NCBI GenBank assembly: GCA_003557645.1 | Contig: PWNV01000014.1 | Coordinates: 17,989 to 81,988 of the forward strand | DNA length: 64,000 nucleotides | Reading direction: 5' to 3' | DNA from: Candidatus Nealsonbacteria bacterium | GTDB taxonomy: Bacteria; Patescibacteriota; Minisyncoccia; Minisyncoccales; PWPS01 | In this document: in pieces, positions 21,441 to 43,193 of the stretch | How positions within the stretch are numbered: the first letter of the stretch is position 1 | Layout of the letters: each line of letters starts with the position of its first letter | Notes under the pieces: generated by a model | The model's input: the letters and a program-made list of their open reading frames with translations, nothing else | Told to the model about the DNA's origin: nothing | Database searches by the model: none | Program-made: the position numbers and the translations under genes

Positions 21441-21464
21441 ATAAGCTTTCCTAAAAGTAATTCT

Positions 21465-24365: not shown

Positions 24366-24378
24366 GCCTCATCAAGCT

Positions 24379-28083: not shown

Positions 28084-31000
28084 ATGAAAAAACTTTTTCT
28101 CCTTTCTGCTCTCGTTTGTTTTCTCGCTCTTTCTTTTAACTTCGTGCTGGCAGACGACCCCCCTAAATGTACTCCCAAATGTGAGTGCATTTATGCTGAA
28201 ACTGAGCCCGAGCATGCAGGATGTGGTTTTCCAGAGTGTGGAGGAGTGGTAATAGAGTACTGGTATGATACAAGATGTGGCACGGGTTTTTGTTATGAAG
28301 TTGAAAACGAGTCCAACGGACCCTGGGAAGACGCTAGGCCTGAATGTAATTGGGGTTGGTCTTGTCATCCGGGATGCTTAGATCTTCCCACACCTGACTA
28401 TTATTGGGCTGATCCGGGAGAAACAATTAAACAAAAAGATTATCCTATCGCCTCTCAGTACCCATACGATGAAACTCCAAACGAGAGAGTATATCTTCCT
28501 GTTAAGCTTGGTTGGGACCATATAAGAGGATGGATGCACCCAACAGGACCTAAGTCTTATCGTATACAAATAGACGGGACAACCAGAGATTATCCCCCTC
28601 CTTACTCCTATCCTCCCGCTGACCCGTCCGACCCTGATCCTCCTGGCGGCCCAGGACCATCCCCTCCCGCAGAGGGATTTCTTACTTGGCCAGTTGATAA
28701 TATTTTTAATGTTAGTGATTACTACGCTCAAGACAGACGGGCAGCATCTTTTCCTTATCTCACAGACTATCACACTGGAATTGATTTTTTTGGTGGCAAC
28801 GTCCCGATATATGCAGCGGGCAACGGAGAAGTAGTAAGAGTAAACAGAAGCCTCCAGGCAGGGATGGGAAGATGGGTCTTGATCAAGCACCCCGGCATAA
28901 CCTCCACCGATGGAAGAACTGTCCTTACACGCTATCTCCACTTAAAGAGCATTGATCCCAATCTCAACGAAGGAGATATGGTCACTGCAGGACAACAAAT
29001 AGGAATAATGGGAGGAACAGGAAGTAGTGAAAATAGTTACGCCATACATCTTCACTGGGATGTTTGTTTTGGAAGTTGTAGGTACAGTAACTGGCCTAAT
29101 GAATTTGATGACCCTCTTAATTACATTACTCGTGATCAAAGGTGGGCAGACTTTATAGAAGCAAGAAGAAGTCACCACAATCACGGAAGAGAAAATTACT
29201 ATTGGCCGGGAACTGTGCCTATTTATATAAGTAATAAAGACACCGACCCCTTCGATCTTTACAACACCCCTCCTCCAACCACTTCTCTTAACAGCTCATC
29301 TTCTTCTTGTTCTTTGGTGACAAACGACTCTCTTCCCTCTAACGAAAATAATACCTCCTTTTTATCAGAGCTATCCTCTTCTTTCGTTTTGACATCAAAC
29401 TCTTTAGAAATAACTCTTGAAGAGTGTCTCCGCACCAATCGATTTATTGCTGATAAGTGTCTTCTACGGTCAGACTATAATCACAACTGGAGAGTGCAGG
29501 GCTGTTGTGACACAGAGTGTAACTCGTGTCACCCCACATGCTGGTCAGAATATGATTTTATAACAGACGAAGCTCCTGAACCTATTGAGCCATATGATCC
29601 TAGCTGGGCTGGAGATTACGGAATGGCAGGAGGTCATCATAATCCACTAGGCTTCCAAGACGCAAACTCAAAATGGTGTGATCCAGAAAACGAAGACGAT
29701 TATAAGGGTTATCTCCTTCTTGCTTTTAAGGAAATAAACGGAAATATGGTCTGTCATCCTGATCGTCTTCGTCCCGATGGCGTTTGTCGTCCTATTCTTG
29801 TCCGAGATGACAATCCTGTTCCTATCCACAGAGGACCTCCTCCCACAGAGATTATTAATATAAGAGAAGACCTTTTCAATGAAATAGGAGAAATATTTGC
29901 CTGGAGGGTGGCTGCTTGTGAGGATCATAAAATGGAAGACTGCTCTGACTATAGCCAGAAATGGAGACTTATTGTTGGAGACACAATAAAAAACCCTCAT
30001 GATTTTCAACCCGCAAACGACCCTGAAGGAGAAACTCCTATTGGAATTTATCCAGACGCTACTTTTAGATGGAACTGGCCCTTTGGAGCACACTCTTTTT
30101 GGTTCCAGCTTGCCGTAGATAACGAAAATCAAGACGTCATAATAGAAGAACTCCTAACCACTAACAGCTTTACCGTTCCAGCAGCAACTTTGGGAATTGA
30201 AAATCGCTTTATCTGGAGAGTTAAATCTTGCTACGATGAAGATGGAGAGAACTGCCTTGAAGAGTGGACAGAAAACATTCACTTTACTACTACGGGAAGA
30301 CCTCCTAACCTAGAGGAGACAGCCGTTCCTCCCGACGGAAGTGAGGAAGTGACTATTCCCCTTACCATAGAGTGGGAATCTGTCCCTGGAGCACAGTCAT
30401 ACATCTTTAGAATAGATGGAGAAGAGAGGCGTGTTTCTTCAGAAAAAATTCATCTTAATTATCCACAACTTAAAACAGGGACTGAGTACTCATGGACCGT
30501 AAAAACTTGTGCTGATCCGGGGGGCTCTGCTTTTTGTGGAGGATTTTGGTCTCCTGAAGTAAAATTTACAACTCTAGTTCTTCAGCCCCCTACAAATCCT
30601 AGCCCTGAAGACAATTCCACTCTTTTCACAGACACAAGAAGCATTAACGCTTCTTGGAGCAAGGCCAGAGGAGCAAACTATTACGAGTATGAGATTAGCT
30701 ACCCAGGAGGAGAAACAGAAAGTGATATTATTTCTGGAACATCCTTTTATGTCAACCTTTTTGACTTGGGAACATATAATTGGAGAGTTCGGTCTTGTCT
30801 TGACAGTAACTGCGAAGACAGCAGCGCTTTTTCCAACTGGAGCTTCACCTACGAAGAAATAGAAGCAGATGGAGTGGGTCTTGTTCCTTGTGGAAGGGCA
30901 TACGACAGCCCTAGCACTCCATGGAACGAGAGAGAGCCTTGTCAGTTGAAACATCTATTTATATTGTTTAAAATATTGACTGATTTTGTCCTTTGGAACC

Positions 31001-31224
31001 TTTTCCCAGTTGCTCTTGTTTTAATGGTTTTAACTACTGGTGCTTTGTTTTCGTTCGCTTCACCTTTGGGACCAAGCGTACTAGCAAGAGTAAAACTGTT
31101 ATGGAAAGGAGTAGGAATTGGTTTTGTTGTTCTTTTCTTTGGTTGGATTATTTTAACAATAGGTCTGTCAATGATAGGATACGACGCAGGTATCTACGGT
31201 CCGTGGTGGCAAATCAACTTTTAA
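28084..31224 (+). CDS. Giant secreted multidomain protein: Cys-rich N-domain, Pro-rich linker, M23 peptidase, four FN3-like WRVxxC repeats, C-terminal VirB2-like pilin/membrane domain
   Basis: Signal peptide; DYHTGIDFF...HLHWD M23 motifs; repeats FAWRVAACED / FIWRVKSCYD / YSWTVKTCAD / YNWRVRSCLD; C-terminal GLVPCG...CQLKHLF plus two TM helices matching ORF 15782..16201. Confidence 0.75.
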   Translation: MKKLFLLSALVCFLALSFNFVLADDPPKCTPKCECIYAETEPEHAGCGFPECGGVVIEYWYDTRCGTGFCYEVENESNGPWEDARPECNWGWSCHPGCLDLPTPDYYWADPGETIKQKDYPIASQYPYDETPNERVYLPVKLGWDHIRGWMHPTGPKSYRIQIDGTTRDYPPPYSYPPADPSDPDPPGGPGPSPPAEGFLTWPVDNIFNVSDYYAQDRRAASFPYLTDYHTGIDFFGGNVPIYAAGNGEVVRVNRSLQAGMGRWVLIKHPGITSTDGRTVLTRYLHLKSIDPNLNEGDMVTAGQQIGIMGGTGSSENSYAIHLHWDVCFGSCRYSNWPNEFDDPLNYITRDQRWADFIEARRSHHNHGRENYYWPGTVPIYISNKDTDPFDLYNTPPPTTSLNSSSSSCSLVTNDSLPSNENNTSFLSELSSSFVLTSNSLEITLEECLRTNRFIADKCLLRSDYNHNWRVQGCCDTECNSCHPTCWSEYDFITDEAPEPIEPYDPSWAGDYGMAGGHHNPLGFQDANSKWCDPENEDDYKGYLLLAFKEINGNMVCHPDRLRPDGVCRPILVRDDNPVPIHRGPPPTEIINIREDLFNEIGEIFAWRVAACEDHKMEDCSDYSQKWRLIVGDTIKNPHDFQPANDPEGETPIGIYPDATFRWNWPFGAHSFWFQLAVDNENQDVIIEELLTTNSFTVPAATLGIENRFIWRVKSCYDEDGENCLEEWTENIHFTTTGRPPNLEETAVPPDGSEEVTIPLTIEWESVPGAQSYIFRIDGEERRVSSEKIHLNYPQLKTGTEYSWTVKTCADPGGSAFCGGFWSPEVKFTTLVLQPPTNPSPEDNSTLFTDTRSINASWSKARGANYYEYEISYPGGETESDIISGTSFYVNLFDLGTYNWRVRSCLDSNCEDSSAFSNWSFTYEEIEADGVGLVPCGRAYDSPSTPWNEREPCQLKHLFILFKILTDFVLWNLFPVALVLMVLTTGALFSFASPLGPSVLARVKLLWKGVGIGFVVLFFGWIILTIGLSMIGYDAGIYGPWWQINF

Positions 31225-31233
31225 TTTAAATAA

Positions 31234-31920
31234 ATGTCTGATAAAAAAATAGTTATTGTAAGTTTCTTAATGATAGCTTTTCTGGTTCTCTCTACATATA
31301 TCCACAGTCAAAGAACTAGAGATATTCAAGAGAACGGCCATCCCGTGCTGCCAAGCAAAGAGTTCTCTTCTTCCGATCATTCTCTCCCCAAGTTAGAAGA
31401 CATTATCAGTGAAAGATCTGGAGAAAATCAAGGAGAGAGACTAAGAGAGCCCGAAGAAATCGAGTATAAAGAATTTATAGATCAAGATAACAAAATAACG
31501 GTAGAGTACCCTTCACACTGGAAAGTTACAGAAGATGCAACTCCCTTAGGGCAAGATAATATAGATTTCCTTTTTGTTGCTTTCTTAGAAGGATCCTACG
31601 AAGTAAGGGCTGGAATGACCATTTTGAGAGGACAAAACTTAGATGAAGACAGTAATTTGCTTGAAAAAACAGAAAGTACTTTTGCCGATGCCGCTAGCCG
31701 AGAAATTTTAGAAGAAAAAGAAACCGAAAACGGGAAGATATTTAAGACAAAATATAAAGATTCATTAGGAGAGATTCGTGGCAAAGAAAAGGTTATGCAG
31801 GCTAATGATAGTAGTTACATGGTCTCCGTTTTTGTGATGTCTCACTCCTGGGAAGATTTCTTACCTCAAACAGATCATATAATTAATTCTGCCACAATTA
31901 GAACAGAAAACGACTTATGA
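31234..31920 (+). CDS. Hypothetical bitopic protein (N-terminal TM plus periplasmic/extracellular domain), VirB8-like topology
   Basis: Single TM (IVIVSFLMIAFLVLSTYI) then about 200-aa soluble domain; size and topology as VirB8 but no sequence motif recognised. Confidence 0.35.
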   Translation: MSDKKIVIVSFLMIAFLVLSTYIHSQRTRDIQENGHPVLPSKEFSSSDHSLPKLEDIISERSGENQGERLREPEEIEYKEFIDQDNKITVEYPSHWKVTEDATPLGQDNIDFLFVAFLEGSYEVRAGMTILRGQNLDEDSNLLEKTESTFADAASREILEEKETENGKIFKTKYKDSLGEIRGKEKVMQANDSSYMVSVFVMSHSWEDFLPQTDHIINSATIRTENDL

Positions 31921-33035
31921 TAAAAAAACCCACCTTACTAAAAATAACAAAGCTTGCACTTGTCTTTCTATTTTTTTCTTTTCTTCCTTTTACTTTTTCT
32001 TTTGCCGGCGAAGATCCGGCTGAAACAGAAGTTATCTGGCCCACCTCTCCTGTAGGAACAGAGTTTACTCGAGACATGCCATTGCACGAGCTTATCGCTT
32101 ATTTTTATGAATGGGGTATTGTTATCGGAATACTGGCAGTGTTTGGTATTTTGGTTTTCGCCGGATTTCAATACACAATTTCTGCTGGAAAGCCTGCCAT
32201 GATGACAGACGCCCTAAGTAGAATTCAAGCTGCAATAATTGGTCTTGTTCTTCTTTTATCTTCTTGGCTAATATTAAGCATTATTAACCCTGAATTGGTA
32301 AAAATTTCTCCTATCACATTTAGTATTTCTGATGAAATACGTGGATTAAATCTTGACGTTGATGATCTCTACGGAGCACCAGTCGACGCTGTAGAGTTCT
32401 ATCCTAAAAAGAATTATGAAGGAGATATTATCTCCACATTATATACTCCAAAAAGATCAACATATGAAATAAGAATAGAACAAGTTCATTATTTAAGTCA
32501 GGGTGGAACAGTTGCTGCTCCAGGAGAAGGAGAAGCAATTCCTCCAGAATCAGCAAGAGGATTTACAGCTATTCCTCCTTCCGAGATGATACAGTGGGAA
32601 CAAGGAATAGATCTTGATTATCAAAGATACAGTCATCCTCCTCTAGATGGAGTACTCGCAGGAACAGGATCATATCTCTCCTTTGGACAAAAAATGATTC
32701 CAGATCCCGAAGGTCTTTATAAAGAAGGAGGATCTTCTTTAGTTGATCTTTACGAAGAAACAACCAGGGGTTTTTGGGACTGGCTTACGGGAACGAAAAT
32801 TAATTGTGAAAGCAAATTAAGTCGAGGAATAATTTCCACGGTTGATGTTAGAGAAGGAATTTTTGGTTTTGACAGAGAAATAAACTGCATGATAATTGAA
32901 CGAAGACACGTGCCTTTAGATGATGCCTTGTTTGGTAGTCCTGGTGAAAACGCGGTAAGAGTTTCTCCCGTTTTTTGCGATGGAGGTGATCCGTGTTTCT
33001 ACAATCCTCCGGAAGACGAAATTCCAGAAGATTAA
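31917..33035 (+). CDS. VirB2/TrbC-like pilin domain protein with about 240-aa C-terminal extracellular extension
   Basis: Signal peptide, LHELIAYFYEWGIVIGILAVFGILVFAGFQYTISAGKP...IQAAIIGLVLLLSSWLILSIINP two-helix pilin pattern. Confidence 0.55.
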   Translation: MIKKPTLLKITKLALVFLFFSFLPFTFSFAGEDPAETEVIWPTSPVGTEFTRDMPLHELIAYFYEWGIVIGILAVFGILVFAGFQYTISAGKPAMMTDALSRIQAAIIGLVLLLSSWLILSIINPELVKISPITFSISDEIRGLNLDVDDLYGAPVDAVEFYPKKNYEGDIISTLYTPKRSTYEIRIEQVHYLSQGGTVAAPGEGEAIPPESARGFTAIPPSEMIQWEQGIDLDYQRYSHPPLDGVLAGTGSYLSFGQKMIPDPEGLYKEGGSSLVDLYEETTRGFWDWLTGTKINCESKLSRGIISTVDVREGIFGFDREINCMIIERRHVPLDDALFGSPGENAVRVSPVFCDGGDPCFYNPPEDEIPED

Positions 33036-33065: not shown

Positions 33066-35306
33066 ATGAATTTTTTAAAGGAAAAGTGTAAATCTAAACT
33101 GAGACACGTGTTCACTCTACTATTTTTTCTCTTCTTCCTTTTTATTCCGGAGATAACAGAGGGGTTTGCTTTTAGTCTTGGAGAAAAGCAGCTTGCAGGT
33201 CTTTCTGAAGTAGTGGGTCCAGTTTTGGCTCTTGGTATCTTTCTTTTTGCCTTCCTTATTTTTTCCTACGGCCTTTTAGTGGTAGCAACCGAATATTTGC
33301 TAGCAATTATCATCTCTACTCCCGATGCTCTTACGCTGAGTGCAGAAAAAGCTCCTTTTGTAGATATAGGATGGCAGTTTATTCTAGGAATATCCAACAT
33401 GCTCCTTATTCTTGCTTTTATTGTTATTGCTATCTCCGTTATATTAAGATTCGAAAATCTTGGCTTTAAAAAGGCATTTCCTAGACTAATCGGTGTTGCC
33501 CTTCTTATAAACTTCTCACTGGTGTTTGTAGGGATGGGAATTGATATCTCGAATGTTTTTTTTAGCACTATTGAAAATGAGCTTATTCTAGAGATGGATC
33601 CTGAGTGCTCTTGGCAGGCCGCAGGTCTGGGAGATTGTCCAGAAGACACCAGCCCAAGTGCCGAAGGGAATTGTCTAGGACCAAATCCTGGAGGATCTCT
33701 TTGTTGCTGTTATGAGGCAGAAACCACCACCCTTATATCCGAATCAATGGAGATGCTCTTCTCTGGGGCAGCTCAAAGAATAATTAATTTTGGCGCTATT
33801 CTCGCTGGTTTTGCAGCGGCAATGTTAATACCTTATGTATCTGTAGGGGTGCAGTTTGCAGTTATTATAGCTGGTGTAGTCTGGTTCTCCGATATTATGG
33901 CAATGCTTACTCAGGGACTAATAATGTTTCTTCTTGCAGGAGCTTTCTTTCTCTTTTTTATTATTTTCCTTGTACGAATCTTTGTTATTCAAATACTTGC
34001 TATCGTCGCTCCCCTTGCCTTTATTTGTTTGATTTTCCCAGGAACACAGTTATATAAATATTTTGAAATGTGGGTAAGAAGTCTTCTTCAGTGGCTTTTT
34101 GCTGGTATTGCCTTCCTTTTTCTGCTCATCCTTGGCTTTAATATGGTTGGTATGGTAGATGGTCTCGTAGGGGTTATCGGAGATTTAGAAGTAGAAGGAG
34201 AAAATACCTGGGTTGTTGCAATAAAGAACGTCTTCTTAGACAGTGGTTTTGTTTACTATATCGTCCTTCTTGTTTATTTTGTAACTATTCTTTTTTTCGG
34301 TAAAAAATTCATTCCAGCTGGAGTAGATGCAATGATTAGTCAAGCTAAGTCTGTTAGCTCTTCGGTTACCGGAATAGCAGGAAAAGCATTTAATCGTAGC
34401 CTTGTACCAAAGAGAGCGCAAGATCAAGCCAATGTTCCCGAAGGAGCTGAGAACATGGCAAATTGGATGAGAAAGAGTAGAGTGCCTGGAGCAAGACTAG
34501 CAGCCCCTACTGTTGCTAGATGGGCTAAGAGAAGAAAGGACGAGGCGGAAAAAGAAGCAAAAGAGGTATCAAGAGACTTTCGTCGTATGGATCAAGTAAG
34601 AAGAGCGGGCGGAACCCAGCAAGAATTAAAGGCGTTATCTTCTACAGGAACTAAGAGACAACGCCACGGGGCAGATTTAGCTTGGGAGGCTAAGATAGGT
34701 GAATTAGAAAAGAAGAAAAAAGAAGTAGAAGAAAGTAGAGGAAAAGCTCCATCAAGATCTGAGGTTGAAAAAGATCTTCCAATAAGAACAGGTGAATCTA
34801 CAACAGACTGGAAGATAAGAGTCGGTAAGGAGCTAGACAGAAGAGAAAGGCAACACAACGCCCCTGTAAGAAGAGTTGAAAAAGAGATAGAATCTTGGAA
34901 TCGAATGGCCCCTCATTTGGGAGCTCCTAATGAAGATGATATTGCAAAAAAGATTCCAAAGGTGGAAGGAGAATCTAGAACGCAAAGAAAACAGAAAATA
35001 CAAAAAGCAATGGACGAAGCCTTAAACAAGCATAGAAGTAAAGTAGGAAAAACCGTTAATGATATGTCTCCAAGTGAACAAGCAAGCATGTTGTCTTCTG
35101 CCTATGATAATAAGACGGTTGTTACTCACATGACAAAAAAGAAGGCTAATATTGATGCGCTGGTGGAGAAGAAAAATTATAAGAATCTAAGAAGAACAAT
35201 CAAAACTTTCAATAAGCTTCATCCTAAAGTACGACAAAAGAGAAGAAAAGTCTTCGATACAATAACAGCCACTCCCGCGTGGAAAGAAGCTAAAAGAATA
35301 AAATAG
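33066..35306 (+). CDS. VirB6/TrbL/TcpH-like polytopic membrane protein with Cys-rich loop and long basic C-terminal tail
   Basis: Signal/TM1 plus at least 7 further TM helices, extracellular loop CSWQAAGLGDCPEDTSPSAEGNCLGPNPGGSLCCC, about 300-aa Lys/Arg-rich cytoplasmic tail. Confidence 0.55.
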   Translation: MNFLKEKCKSKLRHVFTLLFFLFFLFIPEITEGFAFSLGEKQLAGLSEVVGPVLALGIFLFAFLIFSYGLLVVATEYLLAIIISTPDALTLSAEKAPFVDIGWQFILGISNMLLILAFIVIAISVILRFENLGFKKAFPRLIGVALLINFSLVFVGMGIDISNVFFSTIENELILEMDPECSWQAAGLGDCPEDTSPSAEGNCLGPNPGGSLCCCYEAETTTLISESMEMLFSGAAQRIINFGAILAGFAAAMLIPYVSVGVQFAVIIAGVVWFSDIMAMLTQGLIMFLLAGAFFLFFIIFLVRIFVIQILAIVAPLAFICLIFPGTQLYKYFEMWVRSLLQWLFAGIAFLFLLILGFNMVGMVDGLVGVIGDLEVEGENTWVVAIKNVFLDSGFVYYIVLLVYFVTILFFGKKFIPAGVDAMISQAKSVSSSVTGIAGKAFNRSLVPKRAQDQANVPEGAENMANWMRKSRVPGARLAAPTVARWAKRRKDEAEKEAKEVSRDFRRMDQVRRAGGTQQELKALSSTGTKRQRHGADLAWEAKIGELEKKKKEVEESRGKAPSRSEVEKDLPIRTGESTTDWKIRVGKELDRRERQHNAPVRRVEKEIESWNRMAPHLGAPNEDDIAKKIPKVEGESRTQRKQKIQKAMDEALNKHRSKVGKTVNDMSPSEQASMLSSAYDNKTVVTHMTKKKANIDALVEKKNYKNLRRTIKTFNKLHPKVRQKRRKVFDTITATPAWKEAKRIK

Positions 35307-35783: not shown

Positions 35784-37028
35784 CTAATAAAAGAACTTTA
35801 GCCTCCTTTTCCAGGAAAGCTTTGTTTTTGGTTTATACTTTTTCTTGCCGTGATCAGCATCCTCATCGTCGTCATCATCGTCGTCATCATCATCGTCAAT
35901 CTTCTGCCTACTCTCTTTTTCCTTCTCTACTTTCTCTATCTTTTGCTGCTCTTCTTTTTCTCGTTTTTTGTCTTCTTCTTGAATATTTTTTCCTTGTGGC
36001 ATTCTGAGGAATCCCGCAATTGTATTAAGGAAGCTTTTCTCTAGTGATCCGCCTCCCTCAACATCAATATTTACGTAACTACCATTTTCCATTGCCAATT
36101 TTTTCTTGATCATTTCCCTTGCCCAGCGAGCAAAGACTTCCTTCATCTCTGGGTCTTCTCTTATTTCCTTGGCAACTTGACGGGGAGTCTTTCCATAAGC
36201 TTCCGCCATCATATAGACAACGGTCTTAGCGATTTCTCCGGACCTTGCTTTGGCTTTAAATTCTTGCTTTTGTTCGCTGGCCAAAGCCTTTGAGATCTCT
36301 TCGTCCATCGGGGAGATATCAAGGAAAGTAACTCCCTCCTCAGCTATCTTCACTCCCCATTTACGAAGCGTCCCTCCTTCTTCTCTTAACAGTTTGCTCT
36401 CCTTGAGATACTCCCAAATCTTTGCACTTTTAAGTTTGTATAAGTCTTCAAATGAATAACTCGAAACAAAAGAGCGCATCACTCCATCGATTTGGGACAA
36501 CGCTTCCTCTAGTGAGTTCTCCGGAGAGACAAAGAGGAAAAGATAAGGATTTTCAATTTTTAAAGTAACTAAATATTTTACCCTAACTTGAAACCTCTCT
36601 GGCCTTTTCGTTTCAGCGTTCTCTATTTCCGAAGAGTAAACCTCAGGCTTGAGCTTTACTTCATTGAACTCTTCCTTTGCTCCTTTTATACCTTCTTTAC
36701 GCCCATGTTTGTCACTCCATGAGATAGAATAAGTATAAGTTTTTTTGAAGGGAAAGAGTCCAAAATAAAAGAGACCACCAAAAATCCTTCCAGTAATTTT
36801 CTTCCTTACTGCTCCTACTGCTTCGTCGTGCCCTTCTCGTAGCACAGTAAAATTTTCATCCATAAAATGATCTCTCCAGACCATTTTAAAGGAATGAAAC
36901 TGACCAAAGGACATTATTGCCCGAGCCGTTCCTTCTTTAACACTTCCAAAGGAGTGTCTTAGAAAAAAATAAATAAAAGAAACAATACTTCCAAGAAAAA
37001 GAAGAATCAAGACAGTCCATATAATCAT
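35784..37028 (-). CDS. SPFH/band-7 domain membrane protein with C-terminal poly-Asp tract
   Basis: N-terminal TM, KWGVKIAEEGVTFLDISPMDEEISKALASEQKQEFKAKARSGEIAK pattern of SPFH C-region; 9xD+E+D stretch. Confidence 0.5.
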   Translation of the reverse strand: MIIWTVLILLFLGSIVSFIYFFLRHSFGSVKEGTARAIMSFGQFHSFKMVWRDHFMDENFTVLREGHDEAVGAVRKKITGRIFGGLFYFGLFPFKKTYTYSISWSDKHGRKEGIKGAKEEFNEVKLKPEVYSSEIENAETKRPERFQVRVKYLVTLKIENPYLFLFVSPENSLEEALSQIDGVMRSFVSSYSFEDLYKLKSAKIWEYLKESKLLREEGGTLRKWGVKIAEEGVTFLDISPMDEEISKALASEQKQEFKAKARSGEIAKTVVYMMAEAYGKTPRQVAKEIREDPEMKEVFARWAREMIKKKLAMENGSYVNIDVEGGGSLEKSFLNTIAGFLRMPQGKNIQEEDKKREKEEQQKIEKVEKEKESRQKIDDDDDDDDDDDEDADHGKKKYKPKTKLSWKRRLKFFY

Positions 37029-37150
37029 CTCTACACCTCCATTTTTAAGTTGTTAAGTGTACATTTTCTGCCTTTATTTTTTTTATCATTAAATCTTGCT
37101 TTTGTCAAGTACTCTCTTTACTTGCCTTCTCTTTGTGCTAAAATATTTAC

Positions 37151-37567
37151 ATGAGATTCAAAGTTCCAAGAAATATTGAGCATGAAGCAAAAGTAGTGGG
37201 GCCCGCTACTTTTCAGCAAATTCTTCCTATTGGAGGGGCCTCTTTTATTATCTTTATTCTTTACCTTTTACTTAGAGAAAAAAGCATGTTCCTCTTCTTT
37301 TTTCTCTCTACTATCGTTGCTTCCGGCGGCTTCGCTTTGTCTTTTTTAAAAATCAATCAGATGCCCTTATCCCAATACATCAAAAATTACATTTCTTTCT
37401 CCCTTGCTCCGCGAGAGTATATCTGGAAGAAAAAGGAGAAAACTATTAATATATCTACAGAAAGAAAAGCCACGGTAGTAAAAGAAAAAATAGAGAAAGA
37501 AGAGGAAAACAAGCCAAGAAAAGAAAGTCAAATAAATAGAATCAGCTCAAAAATTGATTCACTTTAA
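37151..37567 (+). CDS. PrgI/VirB3-like small membrane protein
   Basis: MRFKVPRNIEHEAKVVGPATFQQ N-terminus then two hydrophobic helices; located immediately upstream of VirB4 as VirB3/PrgI genes are. Confidence 0.5.
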   Translation: MRFKVPRNIEHEAKVVGPATFQQILPIGGASFIIFILYLLLREKSMFLFFFLSTIVASGGFALSFLKINQMPLSQYIKNYISFSLAPREYIWKKKEKTINISTERKATVVKEKIEKEEENKPRKESQINRISSKIDSL

Positions 37568-37569
37568 AT

Positions 37570-38199
37570 ATGCCCTTAAGCACTCAAGAATTACTTGAAA
37601 TTAAGCAGATTAGAGAAGGTGTTCTCGTCCTCAAAAACAACCAGCTACGAGGAATTTTGATGGTTTCGTCAATAAATTTTGTTTTAAAATCTGAAGAAGA
37701 GCAAAAAGCAACTATTTATCATTTTCAATCCTTCTTGAATTCCTTGGATTTCTACTTACAGATAGTTATTCAGTCTAGAAGAACAAATATTAGGGGATAT
37801 ATTGATAAAATCAAGAAAATAGAAAAAGAACACACTAATGAGCTTTTACAGTTTCAAATAGCGGGTTATATAAAGTTCTTGGAAGACTTTGTAAGAAAGG
37901 AAGATGTTTATAGTAAAAACTTTTTTGTAATCATTCCTTATGGTGTTGGAGAGACTAAAACATCAACACGTGATGTTATGGCTGCTAGAAAAGGAACCCT
38001 TACTGATGAGATTTTTGAAAGGGCAAGAGATCAGCTATATCAAAGAATGGAGTTTGCCGCTTTGGGTCTTCGTAGGTGTGGTCTCCACTCCGCTCCATTA
38101 ACTTCTTCTGAAATTATAGAATTACTTTGGAGTATGCATCATCCAAAACAAGCAGAAAAGGGATATTTCCCAGAAATACCTGATGAACTTATTATGTAA
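37570..38199 (+). CDS. VirB4/TrsE/PrgJ-like ATPase, N-terminal fragment (split gene, part 1)
   Basis: REGVLVLKNNQLRGILMVSSINFVLKSEEEQKATIYHFQSFLNSLDFYLQIVI matches VirB4 N-terminal region; ends 17 nt inside next ORF in different frame. Confidence 0.6.
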   Translation: MPLSTQELLEIKQIREGVLVLKNNQLRGILMVSSINFVLKSEEEQKATIYHFQSFLNSLDFYLQIVIQSRRTNIRGYIDKIKKIEKEHTNELLQFQIAGYIKFLEDFVRKEDVYSKNFFVIIPYGVGETKTSTRDVMAARKGTLTDEIFERARDQLYQRMEFAALGLRRCGLHSAPLTSSEIIELLWSMHHPKQAEKGYFPEIPDELIM

Positions 38200-40021
38200 A
38201 ATGTCACATTTTATAAAAAATTTTAAAGAAATTCTTGGCTTAAATCTTCCTGGTAAAAAAACTTCTTCCAAGCCAGAGGAAGATGATGACTTTTTTGAGA
38301 TAAAAGACATTATCGCTCCTTCTTTTATAGAAGAGAAACAAGGAATGATAAAAATAGGTGAGAAAAGTTGTCGCTCTTTCTTTGTTTTCTCTTACCCTCA
38401 TTACCTTACAAGCGGTTGGCTTATCTCAGTAATTAACTTAGGAGCACAGATGGATATATCTTTTTTTATTCATTCTGTAGACACAACTCTTATTTTAAAA
38501 AAACTAAGAAAAAAACTTACTGAGGTTCAAGCAGAGATAATGGAAAATGAAAGTAAAGGAATTGTTCGCGATCCTGCTTTGGAAACAGCTCATCAAGACA
38601 TGGAAGATCTACGAGACAGACTTCAATCTGCACAAGAAAGAATGTTCCAGTTTGGCTTTTATATTACTATTTACGGAGATAATGATAAGGAGTTAGAGGA
38701 CATAGAAACCGTTTTAAGGTCTATATTGGAAGCAAAGGTAGTTTACCTTAAGTCTGCTCTCTTTCAGCAAAAGGACGGCTTTATTAGCACCTCTCCTTAC
38801 GGAAGAGATATACTTCAAACCCACAGCCCGATGAATACAGAACCCCTTTCCAGTATCTTCCCCTTTATTTCTTCCGAACTTACCTCTAACGACGGAATTT
38901 TATACGGAATCAACAAGCACAATAACTCTCTTGTTTTGTTTGATCGTTTTGAATTGGAAAATCCAAATCAAATAGTTTTTGGAACTTCGGGAGTAGGAAA
39001 ATCTTATCTCGTAAAATTAGCACTTCTAAGGTCTATTATGGTAGGCTCGGAAGCTATTGTTATTGATCCGGAAAACGAATACAAAACATTAGCCGAAGCA
39101 GTCGGAGGCTCTTTTTACGATATTTCCCTAGGTTCAGATAATCATATTAACCCTTTTGATATACCAGTTCCAAAAGAAGACGAAACAGCAGAGGAAGTTT
39201 TAAGGACAAATACCATTAATTTGGTTGGACTTTTAAGAATGATGTTGGGAGGATTAACTCCAGAAGAAGATGCTGTTATTGATCAAGCTATTTATGAGAC
39301 TTATGCAGCAAAAGACATCACAGCAGACAGTGATCCGAGTACATGGGAAGAAAAAGTACCTCTTTTTTCAGATTTAGAACAAATATTAGAATCAATGGAA
39401 GGAACAAGATCTCTGATGCTGCGTCTTAGAAGATTTTCAAAAGGAACTTATTCTAAGTTTTTTAACCAACACTCTAACGTCAAACTTGAAGGAAATCTAA
39501 CTGTTTTTGGGATAAGAGACCTTGAAGAAGAGCTCCGTCCGATGGCAATGTTTATTATTATGCGCTATATCTGGAAAACAGTAACCACCTCTATGAAAAA
39601 ACGAGTTCTCGTAATTGATGAGGCTTGGTGGATGATGCAGAGCGAAGATGGAGCATCATTCCTTTTTGGCTTAGTCAAAAGATCAAGAAAATACTGGTTA
39701 GGAGTTACTACTATTACTCAAGATGTTGCTGATTTTATGCGTTCCGAATACGGTCAACCCATCGTTACCAACTCTGCTCTAAAGGTACTACTTAAACAGT
39801 CCTCTGCTGTTATTGATAAAATTCAAGAAACATTTAGCCTTACAGATCAAGAAAAATTTATCCTTTTAGAAGGACAAGTGGGAGAGGGTATCTTTTTTGC
39901 TGGTCAAAAGAGAGTTGCTATTGAGATTACTGCCTCTCCTGCAGAAGACCAAATTATTACCTCTTCACCTGAAGAGATAAAGAAAATAAAGGATAAAAAG
40001 AGAAAAGAAGCAGGACTCTAA
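38183..40021 (+). CDS. VirB4/TrsE/PrgJ-like ATPase, C-terminal part (Walker A and DEAW Walker B)
   Basis: DIIAPSFIEE...FFVFSYPHYLTSGWL, Walker A GTSGVGKS, Walker B VLVIDEAWWMM (VirB4 family DEAW signature). Confidence 0.7.
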   Translation: MNLLCKMSHFIKNFKEILGLNLPGKKTSSKPEEDDDFFEIKDIIAPSFIEEKQGMIKIGEKSCRSFFVFSYPHYLTSGWLISVINLGAQMDISFFIHSVDTTLILKKLRKKLTEVQAEIMENESKGIVRDPALETAHQDMEDLRDRLQSAQERMFQFGFYITIYGDNDKELEDIETVLRSILEAKVVYLKSALFQQKDGFISTSPYGRDILQTHSPMNTEPLSSIFPFISSELTSNDGILYGINKHNNSLVLFDRFELENPNQIVFGTSGVGKSYLVKLALLRSIMVGSEAIVIDPENEYKTLAEAVGGSFYDISLGSDNHINPFDIPVPKEDETAEEVLRTNTINLVGLLRMMLGGLTPEEDAVIDQAIYETYAAKDITADSDPSTWEEKVPLFSDLEQILESMEGTRSLMLRLRRFSKGTYSKFFNQHSNVKLEGNLTVFGIRDLEEELRPMAMFIIMRYIWKTVTTSMKKRVLVIDEAWWMMQSEDGASFLFGLVKRSRKYWLGVTTITQDVADFMRSEYGQPIVTNSALKVLLKQSSAVIDKIQETFSLTDQEKFILLEGQVGEGIFFAGQKRVAIEITASPAEDQIITSSPEEIKKIKDKKRKEAGL

Positions 40022-40470
40022 TTTTTCTTTTTTATAACTACTCTCCTTTGAGAACCTTCGTCTACACTCTCTGTTATTATATCTTCTCTTTTCGCAAGGG
40101 TTAAATGAATAATTCTTCTCTCGTAAGCAGATAAGGAAGGAAATTTTTTTCCTACTCCAGTAAGAGAAACCTCATCAGCGGTTTTATTTGCAATTTCTTC
40201 TAGTTGTTCTCCTTTCCTTTTCTTATAATCATTAATATCTAGATTAATAAATAGTGGTTCAGAGCTGTTTTTTCTTGCTATGATCTTTAAAAGCCTTTCA
40301 ATCTCAACCAAGGATTGACCCCTCTCTCCTATAAAAGCTTGAGGGCTTTTTATCCTTGCATAAACATTAAGATTTTTATCGTCATTAGAAAAAAACTCCA
40401 CCTTAATGTCTGAATCAATTAAATAGAAAAATTTAATTATAATATCTTTGATTTCTTGCTTTGTCTTCAT
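40018..40470 (-). CDS. jag: Jag/KhpB RNA-binding protein (KH plus R3H)
   Basis: R3H motif ERRIIHLTL, position downstream of yidC. Confidence 0.7.
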   Translation of the reverse strand: MKTKQEIKDIIIKFFYLIDSDIKVEFFSNDDKNLNVYARIKSPQAFIGERGQSLVEIERLLKIIARKNSSEPLFINLDINDYKKRKGEQLEEIANKTADEVSLTGVGKKFPSLSAYERRIIHLTLAKREDIITESVDEGSQRRVVIKKKN

Positions 40471-41174
40471 ACTTCTTCACTTTTTTTCACCATATAATGT
40501 TGTGATATAGAAAAAATAATTGTTATTATCCAATAAAGTCCAACTGCAGAGGGAAGATTAAGAAGTATTATAAAAGTAAACCCTGGTAAGAAAATCATCA
40601 TGTGTGATTGCATCATTTTTGCCATATCCTTACTATCTTCTTTTCCTTTATTCTCCATCGTCATTTTCATTTGCAAATACTGTCCTCCTCCCGCTAAAAC
40701 AGCGAGAATAACATTTGCTGTTGACAGGTCTATAATTCCAAGGAATGTAGTGTCTACGCTCTCTGGAGAGGGAATAAAGTTGTAAAGATGAGTCATCTCT
40801 CCTGTTTCCAATCCTCTTCGAAAAATCTGAAACAAGGAAATAAGTATGGGTAGTTGAATAAAAAGAGGAAAAAGGCCAGAGAAAGGGTTAACTTTGGCTT
40901 TTTTATAAGCCTCCATTATCTTTCTTGCCTGAGTTTCTTTGTCATCCTTATATTTCTCTTGTAACTTCTTTATCTCAGGTTGAATCTTTTGTATTTCTTT
41001 TTGAGATCTTGTAGCCTTCAGTCCTAAGGGGTAAAGAATACTCTTAATAAGAACTGTGACTAGAACAACGGCAATTCCTAGGTCAGCAAAAGGAACTACG
41101 TTATAGAAAAAAATTAGCAAATTAAAGAGAGGCTGGTATATTGTTATGTAAAAAAAATCGGCTATAAAGCTCAT
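40467..41174 (-). CDS. yidC: Membrane protein insertase YidC (short, Gram-positive type)
   Basis: Multi-TM Oxa1 family pattern, rnpA-yidC-jag synteny. Confidence 0.8.
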   Translation of the reverse strand: MSFIADFFYITIYQPLFNLLIFFYNVVPFADLGIAVVLVTVLIKSILYPLGLKATRSQKEIQKIQPEIKKLQEKYKDDKETQARKIMEAYKKAKVNPFSGLFPLFIQLPILISLFQIFRRGLETGEMTHLYNFIPSPESVDTTFLGIIDLSTANVILAVLAGGGQYLQMKMTMENKGKEDSKDMAKMMQSHMMIFLPGFTFIILLNLPSAVGLYWIITIIFSISQHYMVKKSEEV

Positions 41175-41178
41175 TGTT

Positions 41179-41523
41179 TTAACTCTTAATCACCTTCGCT
41201 TTTTGTAATATATCCACTACTCCTTCCTTGATCTCTTTATAACTTCTTTTATCTAAGTCTTTCTTACTGATAACAATAACATCAAACCCTTTTTCAATTT
41301 GTTTAAAAACACTTCTTACTGCTTCTCTTTTCTTTCTTTTTAAGGTATTCCTTACTACTGCTTTTCTATATATTTTTACTGGAACAACAAAAGCGAAACG
41401 GGAGAAATCTAAATTATTTTCTTTTACTTTTATTAAGTAAGTCTGATTTTCAAACTTCTTTCCGTTTCGAAAAATATCATCAAACTCCTTCCTTTTTTTA
41501 ATTCTATATTTAAAAGAAAGCAT
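41179..41523 (-). CDS. rnpA: Ribonuclease P protein component
   Basis: Basic small protein, RNR-like motif region, synteny rpmH-rnpA. Confidence 0.75.
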   Translation of the reverse strand: MLSFKYRIKKRKEFDDIFRNGKKFENQTYLIKVKENNLDFSRFAFVVPVKIYRKAVVRNTLKRKKREAVRSVFKQIEKGFDVIVISKKDLDKRSYKEIKEGVVDILQKAKVIKS

Positions 41524-41526
41524 TAA

Positions 41527-41661
41527 TTAGACAGTAAGCCTGCTTCTTTTCTTCCTTATTCTGCGCTTTAAAACAGATCTTCCTGCTTTGTTTTTAATTC
41601 TTGCAAAAAATCCATGCGCTCTTTTCCTTTTTCTATTTTTTGGATTAGTAAAAAATGACAT
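41527..41661 (-). CDS. rpmH: 50S ribosomal protein L34 (not in ORF track, 44 aa)
   Basis: Manual translation MSFFTNPKNRKRKRAHGFFARIKNKAGRSVLKRRIRKKRSRLTV matches L34 consensus. Confidence 0.85.
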   Translation of the reverse strand: MSFFTNPKNRKRKRAHGFFARIKNKAGRSVLKRRIRKKRSRLTV

Positions 41662-41840
41662 AGTTTCGTAAAATTTACCTTGTTATTCTACTTCAAATTA
41701 ATTTAAATGTCAATTTATAAAACTAAATTAGTTATCCCCACTTTTTCCACATGTTATTAAGATATTAACAGATAAATGGAGTTTTCCCCACCATTTTAAT
41801 TATGCTATAATCCACCTAGTTAATTTTAATATAATTAAAA
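41662..41840. promoter_or_regulatory. Chromosomal replication origin region (oriC) with DnaA-box cluster between rpmH and dnaA
   Basis: AT-rich; DnaA-box-like 9-mers ttatcccca (41732), ttttccaca (41744), ttttcccca (41782), taatccacc (about 41808) all same orientation. Confidence 0.7.
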
Positions 41841-43193
41841 ATGATTACAGAGAAAGAAAAACTTTGGCAATCAGTCTTAGCTCAAGTTCAATTAAATACC
41901 TCTGAAGCAAATTTTAATACATGGTTTAAGGGCACTCAAATTTATTCCCTTGAGGATCCTAAAATAATTATTGCTGTTCCTAATTCTTTTGTAAAAGAGT
42001 GGCTAGAAAATAAATATAACAAAATAATACTTAAAACAATAAAAGAGCTAAATAATAATATAAAAGAAATTAATTATATTATTAAAACCCCTAGCAAAAA
42101 AGAAGTAGAGAGAGAGGAAAAGATTGGACCGATTAATCAAATGCAATTTCAAGAGTTTTCAGTAGACTCATCTACAGGTCTAAATCCTAAATATACATTT
42201 GAAAATTTTGTAGTTGGTCCTTTTAATGAACTCGCACATGCTGCTAGTTTTGCTGTTTCAGAGAGTCCCGGAACAATTTATAATCCCCTTTTTATTTATG
42301 GGAAAACAGGGCTTGGAAAAACACATCTTTTACAAGCAGTAGGAAACGAGATAAAAAATAAAATTAAGAATAAAAATATTTTATATATTCAAGCACAAAA
42401 GTTTATCTCTGAAGTAGTTTCTTCTATAAGAAATGGAAAGATGGAGGAGTTTAAAAATCAATATAAAGATATTGATATTATTATTATTGATGACATTCAA
42501 TTCCTTTCAGGAAAAGAAAAAACACAAGAAGAGTTTTTTCATATTTTTAATGAATTATATGAGAAAAATAAACAAATTATTCTTTCTTCAGACAGACCTC
42601 CAAAATCAATTAATGCTCTTACTGATAGATTAAGATCTCGATTTGAAGGAGGGATGATTACTGATATAGATTATCCTGATCTTGAAACTAGAGCCGCTAT
42701 TCTTAAGAAGAAGGCTATCGAAAAAGAATTTAATCTTTCTGATGATGTCTGTTCTTATATAGTAGAAAATATTCAAAAAAATATCAGAGAATTAGAGGGA
42801 GTTTTAAATAAATTAATAATTCATCAAAAAGTTCATAAAGAAGATATTAATATGGACAGAATAAAGATTGTTTTAAAAAATATAATTCAATCTTCAACAA
42901 CCTCTTTTTCTTCACAAAATATATTTAAAGTTGTATCAGATTATTATGAAATTAATGAAAAGGAGATAAAAAGCTCTTCTAGAAAAAGAGAAATTGTAAA
43001 ACCAAGACAAATTATAATTTATTTATTAAGAAATGAATTAAATTATTCCTTTCCTTATATTGGTAAAAAAATAGGAGGAAAAGATCATACAACAATAATA
43101 TATTCTTTTAATAAAATAAATAAGGATTTAAAAATAAATGAAGATTTAAGAGAGGAGATATCATATATTAAACAAACAATATCTTCTATGTAA
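41841..43193 (+). CDS. dnaA: Chromosomal replication initiator DnaA
   Basis: AAA+ Walker A GKTGLGKTHL, DnaA domain IV; rpmH-dnaA-dnaN synteny. Confidence 0.9.
   Translation: MITEKEKLWQSVLAQVQLNTSEANFNTWFKGTQIYSLEDPKIIIAVPNSFVKEWLENKYNKIILKTIKELNNNIKEINYIIKTPSKKEVEREEKIGPINQMQFQEFSVDSSTGLNPKYTFENFVVGPFNELAHAASFAVSESPGTIYNPLFIYGKTGLGKTHLLQAVGNEIKNKIKNKNILYIQAQKFISEVVSSIRNGKMEEFKNQYKDIDIIIIDDIQFLSGKEKTQEEFFHIFNELYEKNKQIILSSDRPPKSINALTDRLRSRFEGGMITDIDYPDLETRAAILKKKAIEKEFNLSDDVCSYIVENIQKNIRELEGVLNKLIIHQKVHKEDINMDRIKIVLKNIIQSSTTSFSSQNIFKVVSDYYEINEKEIKSSSRKREIVKPRQIIIYLLRNELNYSFPYIGKKIGGKDHTTIIYSFNKINKDLKINEDLREEISYIKQTISSM

What the first reader, a model, noticed from the sequence alone, without database searches (positions are those of the whole stretch)
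37570..40021. VirB4-family ATPase encoded as two overlapping ORFs in different frames
ORF 37570..38199 carries the VirB4/TrsE N-terminal region. ORF 38183..40021 (a +1 frame shift, with a 17-nt overlap) continues with the typical IAPSxIEE ... YP ... GWL region, Walker A GTSGVGKS and DEAW. Together they are about 815 aa, the normal VirB4 size. The junction lies in an A/T homopolymer-rich stretch (ataaaaaatttt, ggtaaaaaaac). This could be a sequencing or assembly indel, a recent pseudogenisation, programmed frameshifting, or a genuinely split two-subunit ATPase.
Basis: seen in the sequence. Interest (0 to 1): 0.6.

Follow-up and report, generated by a model that had tools for sequence, protein, structure and literature searches.

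The report
Naturally split VirB4 secretion ATPase
The two reading frames are not a sequencing error or a frameshift. They are the normal, conserved two-gene form (a TrsD-like protein plus a VirB4 ATPase) of the type IV secretion motor in Patescibacteria, and this arrangement is already published.

Summary
ORF 37570..38199 (209 aa) and the next ORF, in the +1 frame, together cover a full VirB4 without overlapping each other.

The split is a conserved two-gene arrangement:
- Every one of the 120 best homologues of ORF1 is a stand-alone protein of 179-232 aa that ends at the same residue.
- In 79 related Patescibacteria genomes the ATPase gene follows directly. It lies in frame 0, +1 or +2 (24/26/30), with spacers from -4 to +505 nt. 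One spacer holds an inserted gene. No locus is fused.
- Two independent assemblies give identical junction DNA.

This excludes an indel, a recent pseudogene and programmed frameshifting.

Two details need correcting. The conserved start of the ATPase is ATG 38201 (TAA-A-ATG, 606 aa), so the 17-nt overlap is probably only a product of longest-ORF calling.

The break point matches TrsD/TrsE of staphylococcal plasmid pSK41 and PrgI/TrsD-like/ATPase triads on Bacillus and Clostridioides plasmids.

A 2025 paper (PMC12102498) already reports TrsD, VirB4, PrgI/VirB3 and pilin genes next to dnaA across Patescibacteria. Verdict: ordinary and already known.

The parts
37117..37144 (+). Promoter-like site (TTTACT-16 nt-TAAAAT, with TG before the -10) upstream of the prgI-like gene. 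Possible promoter of the prgI / trsD-like / virB4 operon.
   Evidence: Consensus scan. The number of such sites in the region is no higher than in shuffles, so this is only a candidate.
37151..37567 (+). PrgI family (VirB3-like) small membrane protein, 138 aa. First gene of the triad.
   Evidence: Pfam PF12666 PrgI, E 1.2e-10, 42.3 bits against a cut-off of 27. A PrgI homologue lies directly upstream of the ORF1 homologue in 62 of 74 related loci, and also on Bacillus and Clostridioides plasmids.
37570..38199 (+). TrsD-like protein, 209 aa: the detached N-terminal subdomain of VirB4. It starts 2 nt after the prgI stop.
   Evidence: NCBIfam places it at the N-terminal end of three full-length VirB4 models and on TrsD. 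2904 homologues; the best 120 are all stand-alone proteins of 179-232 aa carrying PF26593 (TraC-like). The C-terminus is conserved to the last residues. The 14 best PDB matches of the AF2 model are all TrwK/VirB4. Pairwise match to pSK41 TrsD, E 5e-5.
38197..38203 (+). Gene junction TAA-A-ATG: the stop of the trsD-like gene, 1 nt, then the conserved start of virB4.
   Evidence: Read from the sequence. Identical in two Logan assemblies and kept in the 85%-identical relative L001. Across 80 loci the spacer ranges from -4 to +505 nt and all three frames occur.
38201..40021 (+). VirB4 / TrsE-like ATPase, 606 aa: a disordered linker (residues 1-36), the second half of the VirB4 N-terminal domain, and the RecA-like C-terminal domain. 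The longest-ORF start at 38183 would give 612 aa.
   Evidence: NCBIfam conju_CD1110, 361 bits (cut-off 325), model positions 186-734 of 752. PDB 4ag5 VirB4 E 2.7e-44 and TrwK. Foldseek 4ag5 E 4e-21 and TrwK 6e-18. All 120 best homologues are 573-612 aa.
38981..39004 (+). Walker A motif GTSGVGKS.
   Evidence: G264, G266, K267 and S268 are invariant in 52 and in 61 homologues.
39617..39628 (+). Walker B region DEAW.
   Evidence: D473, E474, A475 and W476 are invariant.
31917..33035 (+). Context: protein with a T4SS pilin (VirB2-like) domain, 372 aa.
   Evidence: Pfam PF18895 T4SS_pilin, E 2.6e-7, 31.1 bits against a cut-off of 26.6.
33066..35306 (+). Context: 746-aa protein with many hydrophobic stretches. 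It sits where a VirB6-like channel subunit would be expected, but this was not demonstrated.
   Evidence: Translation. No Pfam or NCBIfam hit. The assignment rests only on position and on the gene content described in PMC12102498.
28084..31224 (+). Context: 1046-aa protein with an M23 peptidase domain. Candidate cell-wall hydrolase of the system (a VirB1-like role).
   Evidence: Pfam Peptidase_M23, E 2e-16. NCBIfam peptidoglycan endopeptidase models, all below their cut-offs.
41841..43193 (+). Context: probable dnaA, by position beside rpmH, rnpA, yidC and jag (40018..41661, - strand). This would place the cluster at the chromosomal replication origin.
   Evidence: Inferred by reading the translations. 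No family search was run on these ORFs. The same neighbourhood (dnaA, rnpA, rpmH, ksgA) is described for Patescibacteria virB4 in PMC12102498. KsgA (RrnaAD) at 27227..28072 does have a Pfam hit.

Best explanation
[quoted passage not shown] The ORFs belong to a three-gene unit: prgI (VirB3-like membrane anchor, 37151..37567), a trsD-like gene (37570..38199) and virB4 (most likely 38201..40021).

The TrsD-like protein is the first roughly 200 residues of a canonical VirB4 N-terminal domain, made as a separate polypeptide. The ATPase gene encodes the rest: a linker, the second half of the N-terminal domain, and the Walker A/B motor domain. The break is ancient and falls at the same point as the TrsD/TrsE break of staphylococcal pSK41/pGO1-type conjugation systems and of Bacillus and Clostridioides plasmids.

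Shown here: the two parts are complementary and colinear with fused VirB4; the split is conserved; each gene has its own start codon.

Inferred:
- The two proteins reassemble non-covalently into a VirB4-like unit.
- The TrsD-like part provides the membrane-proximal contact to PrgI/VirB3, as the VirB4 N-terminal domain does in the R388 structure.
- The 2-nt and 1-nt spacings, in a genome whose genes lack Shine-Dalgarno sequences, give coupled and roughly equimolar translation.
For: Complementarity: ORF1 matches model positions 19-153 of 792 (TIGR00929), 104-232 of 894 (VirB4_plasma) and 5-81 of 752 (CD1110). ORF2 matches positions 217-770, 275-893 and 186-734 of the same three models. The ORF1 and ORF2 profiles show no relationship to each other (hhalign probability 0.4%), so they are parts of one protein rather than duplicates.

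Fold: the 14 best PDB matches of the ORF1 model are all TrwK/VirB4. The ORF2 model matches VirB4 structures.

Conservation of the split:
- The best 120 ORF1 homologues are 179-232 aa, with the C-terminus ...GY[YF]PE[IF]PxEL conserved and followed by a stop.
- The best 120 ORF2 homologues are 573-612 aa.
- In 79 of 79 informative loci the ATPase gene follows. The relative frame is 0/+1/+2 in 24/26/30 loci and the spacer runs from -4 to +505 nt.
- In L063 a separate small gene lies between the two.

Not an artefact: junction DNA is identical in Logan assemblies of SRR490128 and SRR490129, and there is no indel relative to the 85%-identical relative.

Same break point elsewhere: ORF1 residues 4-193 align with pSK41 TrsD residues 33-218, and ORF2 residue 36 aligns with TrsE residue 36. 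B. mycoides p226 carries PrgI, a 304-aa protein and a 699-aa ATPase, which align colinearly.

Literature: PMC12102498 reports TrsD (a remote homologue of the VirB4 N-terminus) as the most abundant T4SS component in Patescibacteria. It is mostly adjacent to virB4, lies near dnaA/rnpA/rpmH/ksgA, and is listed as essential in Ca. Southlakia epibionticum.
Against: - No experiment or multimer model here shows that the two proteins bind each other or PrgI.
- The ORF1 matches to full-length VirB4 models are weak (E 1e-9 to 2e-3) and fall below every NCBIfam cut-off, including the TrsD model (37 bits against 200).
- The fold match to TrwK is marginal (best E 7e-3, TM-score 0.47).
- The ORF2 model is poor in its N-terminal part (pLDDT below 50 for residues 1-45 and 183-254).
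- The choice of start, 38201 or 38183, rests on comparison alone.
- Translational coupling is inferred from spacing only.
Confidence: 0.93

Rival explanations
1. A sequencing or assembly indel broke a single 815-aa VirB4 gene into two frames.
For: The region is AT-rich with A6 and A7 runs nearby. The two ORFs are in different frames and overlap if the first ATG is used.
Against: Junction DNA is identical in two assemblies made from separate runs. The 85%-identical relative has the same TAA-A-ATG and no indel. Every ORF1 homologue stops at the same residue. None of 79 related loci is fused, and 24 of the 80 loci compared (window included) have both genes in the same frame separated by a stop. 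The A-runs lie outside the only interval (38120-38196) where a shift could fuse the ORFs.
Confidence: 0.01
2. Recent pseudogenisation: VirB4 is being lost in this reduced genome and the split is a disabling mutation.
For: Patescibacteria have reduced genomes. No relaxase or coupling protein was seen among the neighbouring ORFs that were checked.
Against: Both halves are conserved at 52-85% identity across the clade. Walker A/B and many other residues are invariant. The split is shared with functional conjugative plasmids such as pSK41. TrsD and VirB4 are listed as essential in Ca. S. epibionticum (PMC12102498).
Confidence: 0.01
3. Programmed +1 ribosomal frameshifting, or stop-codon bypass, makes a fused full-length VirB4, possibly alongside the separate products.
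For: In this window and in L001 the ORF2 frame is open for 77 nt upstream of the ORF1 stop, and ORF2 is in the +1 frame. A rare fused product cannot be excluded from sequence alone.
Against: The relative frame is 0/+1/+2 in 24/26/30 loci, and spacers reach tens to hundreds of nt. No slippery motif is conserved even between the window and its 85%-identical relative. ORF1-frame residues are conserved up to the stop, and the ORF2 N-terminus begins with a conserved Met. In L063 another gene sits between the two.
Confidence: 0.02
4. The ORF1 protein is an independent accessory protein that only resembles the VirB4 N-terminus, for example an old duplicate with its own role. It would not be the missing piece of the ATPase.
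For: The literature assigns TrsD no function. Similarity to VirB4 N-termini is weak. Bacillus homologues carry extra N- and C-terminal extensions (304 aa). In Gracilibacteria, TrsD is reported as not associated with virB4.
Against: ORF2 and its homologues lack exactly the model positions that ORF1 covers, in three separate full-length VirB4 models. The combined length, 209 + 606 = 815 aa, equals a canonical VirB4. Adjacency and gene order (prgI, trsD-like, virB4) are conserved from staphylococcal plasmids to Patescibacteria.
Confidence: 0.04

Closest known systems
Patescibacteria (CPR) chromosomal T4SS as described by Quinonero-Coronel et al., Microb Genom 2025 (PMC12102498)
   Same: Same gene set: TrsD homologue, VirB4, PrgI/VirB3 and VirB2-like pilin, with M23/LysM hydrolases nearby. 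Same location next to dnaA, rnpA, rpmH and ksgA. The closest relatives are Nealsonbacteria/Paceibacteria genomes.
   Different: Nothing substantive differs. This work adds the junction geometry (all three frames, spacers -4 to +505 nt), the likely true start at 38201, and an explicit demonstration that TrsD and the ATPase are complementary parts with the same break point as pSK41.
TrsD/TrsE (TraD/TraE) of staphylococcal conjugative plasmids pSK41/pGO1 (MPF_FATA class)
   Same: A small protein of 227 aa followed by a 672-aa DUF87/VirB4 ATPase. ORF1 aligns with TrsD almost end to end, and ORF2 residue 36 aligns with TrsE residue 36, so the fission point is the same. A small gene precedes trsD in pSK41, as prgI does here.
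   Different: Identity is only 20-26%. ORF1 scores 37 bits against the 200-bit cut-off of the NCBIfam TrsD model. pSK41 is a plasmid with a relaxase and a VirD4 coupling protein. Here the cluster is chromosomal, lies at the replication origin, and has no relaxase or coupling protein among the ORFs checked.
PrgI / hypothetical protein / DUF87 ATPase triads on Bacillus (including pXO1-type), Clostridioides and other Bacillota plasmids
   Same: Same gene order and colinear alignment. Residues 75-265 of the B. mycoides p226 304-aa protein align with ORF1 residues 10-203. The ATPase starts at the same DVIAP/DIIAP motif.
   Different: The plasmid proteins are longer (about 304-314 aa and 640-699 aa) and about 25% identical.
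Canonical single-chain VirB4 (TrwK of R388, PDB 7o41/8rtb; CD1110-family and mycoplasma ICE VirB4)
   Same: Same overall domain order and ATPase motifs. The ORF1 and ORF2 models both find TrwK as a structural match. HMM coordinates are colinear.
   Different: These are one polypeptide of 750-900 aa. Here the first roughly 200 residues are a separate gene product.

Membership tests
VirB4 family T4SS ATPase (ORF2) | Score above the curated cut-off of a VirB4 family model | tested here: met
   NCBIfam NF045971 conju_CD1110: 361 bits against a cut-off of 325, E 1.3e-107, model positions 186-734 of 752.
VirB4 family T4SS ATPase (ORF2) | Walker A and Walker B motifs of the RecA-like C-terminal domain | tested here: met
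   GTSGVGKS at 38981-39004 and DEAW at 39617-39628. Both are invariant in homologues.
VirB4 family T4SS ATPase (ORF2) | Sequence and fold similarity to solved VirB4 structures | tested here: met
   phmmer against 4ag5, E 2.7e-44, and TrwK, 1.1e-5. Foldseek against 4ag5, E 4e-21, and TrwK, 6e-18. The model has pLDDT of only 64 overall but 80-95 over the ATPase core.
VirB4 family T4SS ATPase (ORF2) | Complete N-terminal domain within the same polypeptide | tested here: not met
   ORF2 lacks model positions 1 to about 185-275 of the three full-length models. ORF1 supplies them. Only the pair of proteins, not ORF2 alone, equals a canonical VirB4.
TrsD/TraD family (ORF1) | Score above the NCBIfam NF041427 cut-off | tested here: not met
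   37 bits against a cut-off of 200, E 3e-9, model positions 21-153 of 201. ORF1 is a distant homologue, not a member of that staphylococcal-type subfamily as NCBI delimits it.
TrsD/TraD family (ORF1) | Homology to a prototype TrsD over its full length | tested here: met
   BLASTP against pSK41 TrsD: ORF1 residues 4-193 align with TrsD residues 33-218, E 5e-5, 20% identity. The source database records Pfam PF26593 (TraC-like) for this exact protein. That model is absent from the local Pfam copy.
TrsD/TraD family (ORF1) | Small stand-alone gene directly upstream of the virB4/trsE ATPase gene | tested here: met
   True of the window, of 79 of 79 informative loci, of pSK41, and of Bacillus and Clostridioides plasmids.
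PrgI / VirB3-like (37151..37567) | Pfam PF12666 above the gathering score, located upstream of virB4 | tested here: met
   42.3 bits against a cut-off of 27. Conserved upstream in 62 of 74 loci.
Patescibacteria origin-proximal T4SS (PMC12102498) | Chromosomal location near dnaA, rnpA, rpmH and ksgA | tested here: met
   ORFs that read as jag, yidC, rnpA, rpmH and dnaA lie at 40018..43193. These were identified from the translations, with no family search. KsgA (RrnaAD) at 27227..28072 has a Pfam hit.
Patescibacteria origin-proximal T4SS (PMC12102498) | No relaxase or coupling protein in the cluster | tested here: inconclusive
   No relaxase or VirD4 domain was found among the ORFs scanned between 19 and 40 kb. 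Several large ORFs have no family hit, and the rest of the window was not scanned.
Programmed ribosomal frameshift gene | Conserved frame relation and conserved slippery site at the junction | tested here: not met
   Relative frame 0/+1/+2 in 24/26/30 loci, spacer -4 to +505 nt. No motif is conserved between the window and L001 beyond coding constraints.

The most novel reading that the evidence does not exclude
Splitting off the first roughly 200 residues of VirB4 could be functionally exploited rather than neutral. The free TrsD-like subunit might be a separately dosed or exchangeable adaptor that docks the ATPase hexamer to PrgI/VirB3 only when the machine is assembled. That would give this essential, relaxase-less Patescibacteria T4SS a regulatory step that single-chain VirB4 systems lack. 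In the window's own sub-lineage, a minor fused product made by a +1 shift within 38120-38196 is also not strictly excluded.
Probability: 0.1. Interest if true: 0.4.

Novelty: already known. Interest (0 to 1): 0.12.

Why it matters
The practical value is for annotation. Gene callers and reviewers should not flag this junction as a frameshift or pseudogene, should not merge the two ORFs, and should probably start the ATPase at 38201. Annotated starts in the source databases disagree: 612 aa for this genome, 595 aa for the 85%-identical relative.

Biologically, the locus is one more example of the origin-proximal T4SS of Patescibacteria, which is essential in the one cultured species tested. It confirms that this system shares the TrsD/TrsE fission with pSK41-type Gram-positive conjugation systems. 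The function of TrsD is still unassigned in the literature. The complementarity shown here supports the simple idea that it is the detached N-terminal, VirB3-facing module of VirB4.

Tried and rejected
- A profile search of ORF1 against PDB sequences gave only chance hits, E > 0.5.
- The local Pfam copy has no model matching ORF1. PF26593 appears only in the precomputed annotations.
It was repeated with database homologues after a second protein search.
- The secondary structures of ORF1 and of the ORF2 N-terminal region look alike, so I tested whether ORF1 is a duplicate of that region. hhalign gave probability 0.4%, and the idea was rejected at the sequence level.
- I checked whether the A-runs could be a frameshift site. 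They lie after the ORF1 stop, so this was rejected.
- An apparent second break in the VirB4 of L057 turned out to be a scaffold gap of Ns.
- NCBIfam and Pfam scans of the neighbouring large ORFs (19197..25710, 31234..31920, 33066..35306) found nothing useful.
Full report
OBSERVATION. The second is in the +1 frame relative to the first. The motifs named are all there: IAPSFIEE at 38312-38335, SGWL at 38411-38422, Walker A GTSGVGKS at 38981-39004 and DEAW at 39617-39628. ORF2 passes the curated cut-off of the NCBIfam model for CD1110-type VirB4 ATPases (361 bits against 325, E 1.3e-107). It matches model positions 186-734 of 752, so the N-terminal part of the model is missing. ORF1 matches that missing part in three full-length VirB4 models: positions 19-153 of 792 in TIGR00929, 104-232 of 894 in the mycoplasma ICE VirB4 model, and 5-81 of 752 in CD1110. 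It also matches the TrsD/TraD model (E 3e-9). All of these ORF1 matches are below the family cut-offs. The gene just upstream, 37151..37567, is a PrgI-family (VirB3-like) protein.

IS THE SPLIT REAL AND CONSERVED? ORF1 has 2904 database homologues. The 120 best (55-100% identical) are all stand-alone proteins of 179-232 aa from Patescibacteria. In an alignment of 20 of them the C-terminus (...GY[YF]PE[IF]PxEL plus two residues) is conserved, and all end at the same position. The 120 best homologues of ORF2 are all 573-612 aa, and none is a fused protein of about 800 aa.

I fetched 80 loci from different genomes. They are mostly labelled Nealsonbacteria, Paceibacteria or Wildermuthbacteria, and three are complete chromosomes. 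I measured the junction in each. In 79 of the 80 loci the ATPase gene follows the ORF1 homologue. The remaining locus ends at a contig edge. Among 80 junctions, counting the window, the ATPase gene lies in frame 0, +1 or +2 relative to ORF1 in 24, 26 and 30 cases. The spacer between stop and start is -4 (ATGA) in 12 cases, mostly 1-23 nt, and as long as 505 nt. In L063 the 505-nt spacer holds a separate small ORF. A PrgI homologue lies directly upstream in 62 of 74 loci that have enough upstream sequence. Two assemblies made independently from two sequencing runs (Logan, SRR490128 and SRR490129) carry exactly the junction DNA of the window. The 85%-identical relative L001 differs only by substitutions, with no indel.

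WHAT THIS EXCLUDES. An assembly indel and a recent pseudogene are excluded, because the stop, the restart and both coding halves are conserved across a deep clade. Programmed frameshifting is excluded as the mechanism, because the frame relation and spacing are not conserved and a third of the loci have both genes in the same frame separated by a stop. The ORF2 frame is open only from 38120, so a fusing shift would have to occur within 38120-38196.

CORRECTION OF THE GENE MODEL. The ATG at 38183 is not conserved in L001, which reads CCG GAA GAA where the window reads CCT GAT GAA. Both sequences keep ATG-TAA-A-ATG. Read from ATG 38201, the N-terminus MSHFIKNFKEILGL matches the N-termini of the nearest homologues (MSNFIENFKKMF, MGLLEDFKKL, MNEILNKIKEFL and others). 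In several of these an in-frame stop lies immediately upstream of the Met. Genes in this window generally have no Shine-Dalgarno motif and are preceded by A/T-rich sequence, as 38201 is and 38183 is not. Only 4 of 80 junctions have an SD-like motif. The ATPase gene is therefore most likely 38201..40021 (606 aa), and the 17-nt overlap is a product of longest-ORF calling. The source databases record different lengths for this protein and its relative (612 aa here, 595 aa for the 85%-identical relative).

STRUCTURE. An AlphaFold2 model of ORF1 (66-sequence alignment, mean pLDDT 77.7) was searched against the PDB with Foldseek. Its 14 best hits are all chains of TrwK/VirB4 from the R388 T4SS, although the scores are marginal (best E 7e-3, probability 1.0, TM-score 0.47). 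A profile of ORF1 finds nothing in the PDB by sequence. The ORF2 model (pLDDT 64 overall, high over the ATPase core, residues 1-45 disordered) matches VirB4 of Thermoanaerobacter (E 4e-21) and TrwK over about 570-640 aligned columns. This agrees with the sequence hits. A profile-profile comparison of ORF1 with ORF2 finds no relationship. The two are complementary parts of a VirB4, not duplicates. The break falls inside the VirB4 N-terminal domain, at about position 190-215 of a canonical 790-aa protein.

RELATIVES OUTSIDE PATESCIBACTERIA. A tblastn search of ORF1 against plasmids finds 338 records. Most are Bacillus, including pXO1 of B. anthracis. Others are Clostridium/Clostridioides and a few haloarchaea. 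Where the records are annotated, almost every match lies under a separate 'hypothetical protein'. On B. mycoides p226 and Clostridioides pESW1602 the order is PrgI, then a hypothetical protein (304 or 314 aa), then a DUF87/ATP-binding protein (699 or 640 aa). Both p226 proteins align colinearly with ORF1 and ORF2, and the ATPase begins at the same DVIAP/DIIAP motif. On the prototype plasmid pSK41, trsD (227 aa) is followed 14 nt later by the 672-aa DUF87 ATPase TrsE. ORF1 residues 4-193 align with TrsD residues 33-218 (E 5e-5), and ORF2 residue 36 aligns with TrsE residue 36 (E 1e-43). The fission point is therefore the same. The split is an old feature shared by one branch of Gram-positive conjugation systems and the Patescibacteria system.

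COMPARISON WITH THE LITERATURE. Quinonero-Coronel et al. (Microb Genom 2025, PMC12102498) surveyed T4SS genes in Patescibacteria. Their findings:
- TrsD is mostly encoded next to virB4.
- VirB4, TrsD, PrgI/VirB3, VirB6 and VirB2-like proteins are widespread.
- Relaxases are mostly absent.
- The cluster often lies near dnaA, rnpA, rpmH and ksgA.
- The TrsD homologue of Ca. Southlakia epibionticum is listed as essential.

The window fits this description. KsgA is at 27227..28072, M23/LysM hydrolases at 26120..27124 and 28084..31224, and a T4SS-pilin-domain protein at 31917..33035. ORFs that read as jag, yidC, rnpA, rpmH and dnaA lie at 40018..43193. Those five were identified by reading the translations, not by a family search. 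The finding is thus a further instance of a published arrangement.

MECHANISM. Shown: three tightly spaced genes (prgI, 2 nt, trsD-like, 1 nt, virB4), each with its own conserved start and stop; complementarity of the two VirB4 parts; conservation of the catalytic motifs. Inferred from general knowledge of VirB4 (in the R388 inner-membrane complex the N-terminal domain of VirB4 contacts VirB3 and the membrane face, while the C-terminal domain forms the ATPase ring): the TrsD-like protein probably binds both PrgI and the N-terminal region of the 606-aa ATPase. That would rebuild a VirB4-like protomer non-covalently. The minimal spacers probably couple translation so that the parts are made in similar amounts. 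Confidence that this is a genuine, conserved two-gene VirB4: about 0.93. Confidence in the specific adaptor role: moderate, and untested.

VERDICT. The arrangement is already known, so interest is low. The practical value is in preventing mis-annotation as a frameshift or pseudogene.

Noticed in passing
L010:4632-8438, L013:1608-5399, L014:4745-8536, L049:4661-8437, L055:1682-5035: Five of the 80 related VirB4 genes encode proteins of 1117-1268 aa instead of about 600. The two that were scanned (L010 and L055) contain an intein (Intein_splicing plus a LAGLIDADG homing endonuclease) inserted just before the P-loop ATPase domain.
   Followed up: partly
L063:4679-5190: A 505-nt spacer between the trsD-like gene and virB4 holds a small ORF of about 125 aa (KYDLEERTAAFGENIINFAKTIP...KYWLRII). 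It looks like a four-helix-bundle / 23S rRNA intervening-sequence-type protein, judged by eye and not tested. This is an insertion between the two halves of the split VirB4.
   Followed up: partly
L057:4323-4343: The apparent second break of VirB4 in this Wildermuthbacteria scaffold coincides with a run of N, so it is a scaffold gap and not a biological split.
   Followed up: yes
window 35784..37028 (- strand): An SPFH/Band-7 domain protein (414 aa) lies between the putative VirB6-like gene and prgI, on the opposite strand. It has a C-terminal tail containing an uninterrupted run of 11 aspartates followed by E-D-A-D (DDDDDDDDDDDEDAD) and a lysine-rich end.
   Followed up: no
window 19197..25710 and 31234..31920: Four ORFs (747, 966, 443 and 228 aa) upstream in the same orientation have no significant Pfam or NCBIfam match. 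They may be further uncharacterised components of the secretion cluster or surface proteins.
   Followed up: partly
window, gene starts throughout (e.g. 13600, 31234, 33066, 41841): Start codons in this genome are preceded by A/T-rich sequence with no Shine-Dalgarno motif. Only 4 of 80 virB4 starts in related genomes have an SD-like motif. Window GC content is 36.7%.
   Followed up: partly
plasmid hits (e.g. NZ_CP129994.1 Salinibaculum; Natrinema records; NC_001496.1 pXO1 88620-89192): TrsD-like homologues of ORF1 are detectable on haloarchaeal plasmids (Natrinema, Salinibaculum) and on B. anthracis pXO1. Where annotated, they are labelled 'hypothetical protein'.
   Followed up: no
window 38183 vs 38201; P0121 (612 aa) vs P0122 (595 aa): The source databases record different lengths, and so different start codons, for this VirB4 and its 85%-identical relative. 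Neither matches the comparatively conserved start (606 and 605 aa).
   Followed up: yes
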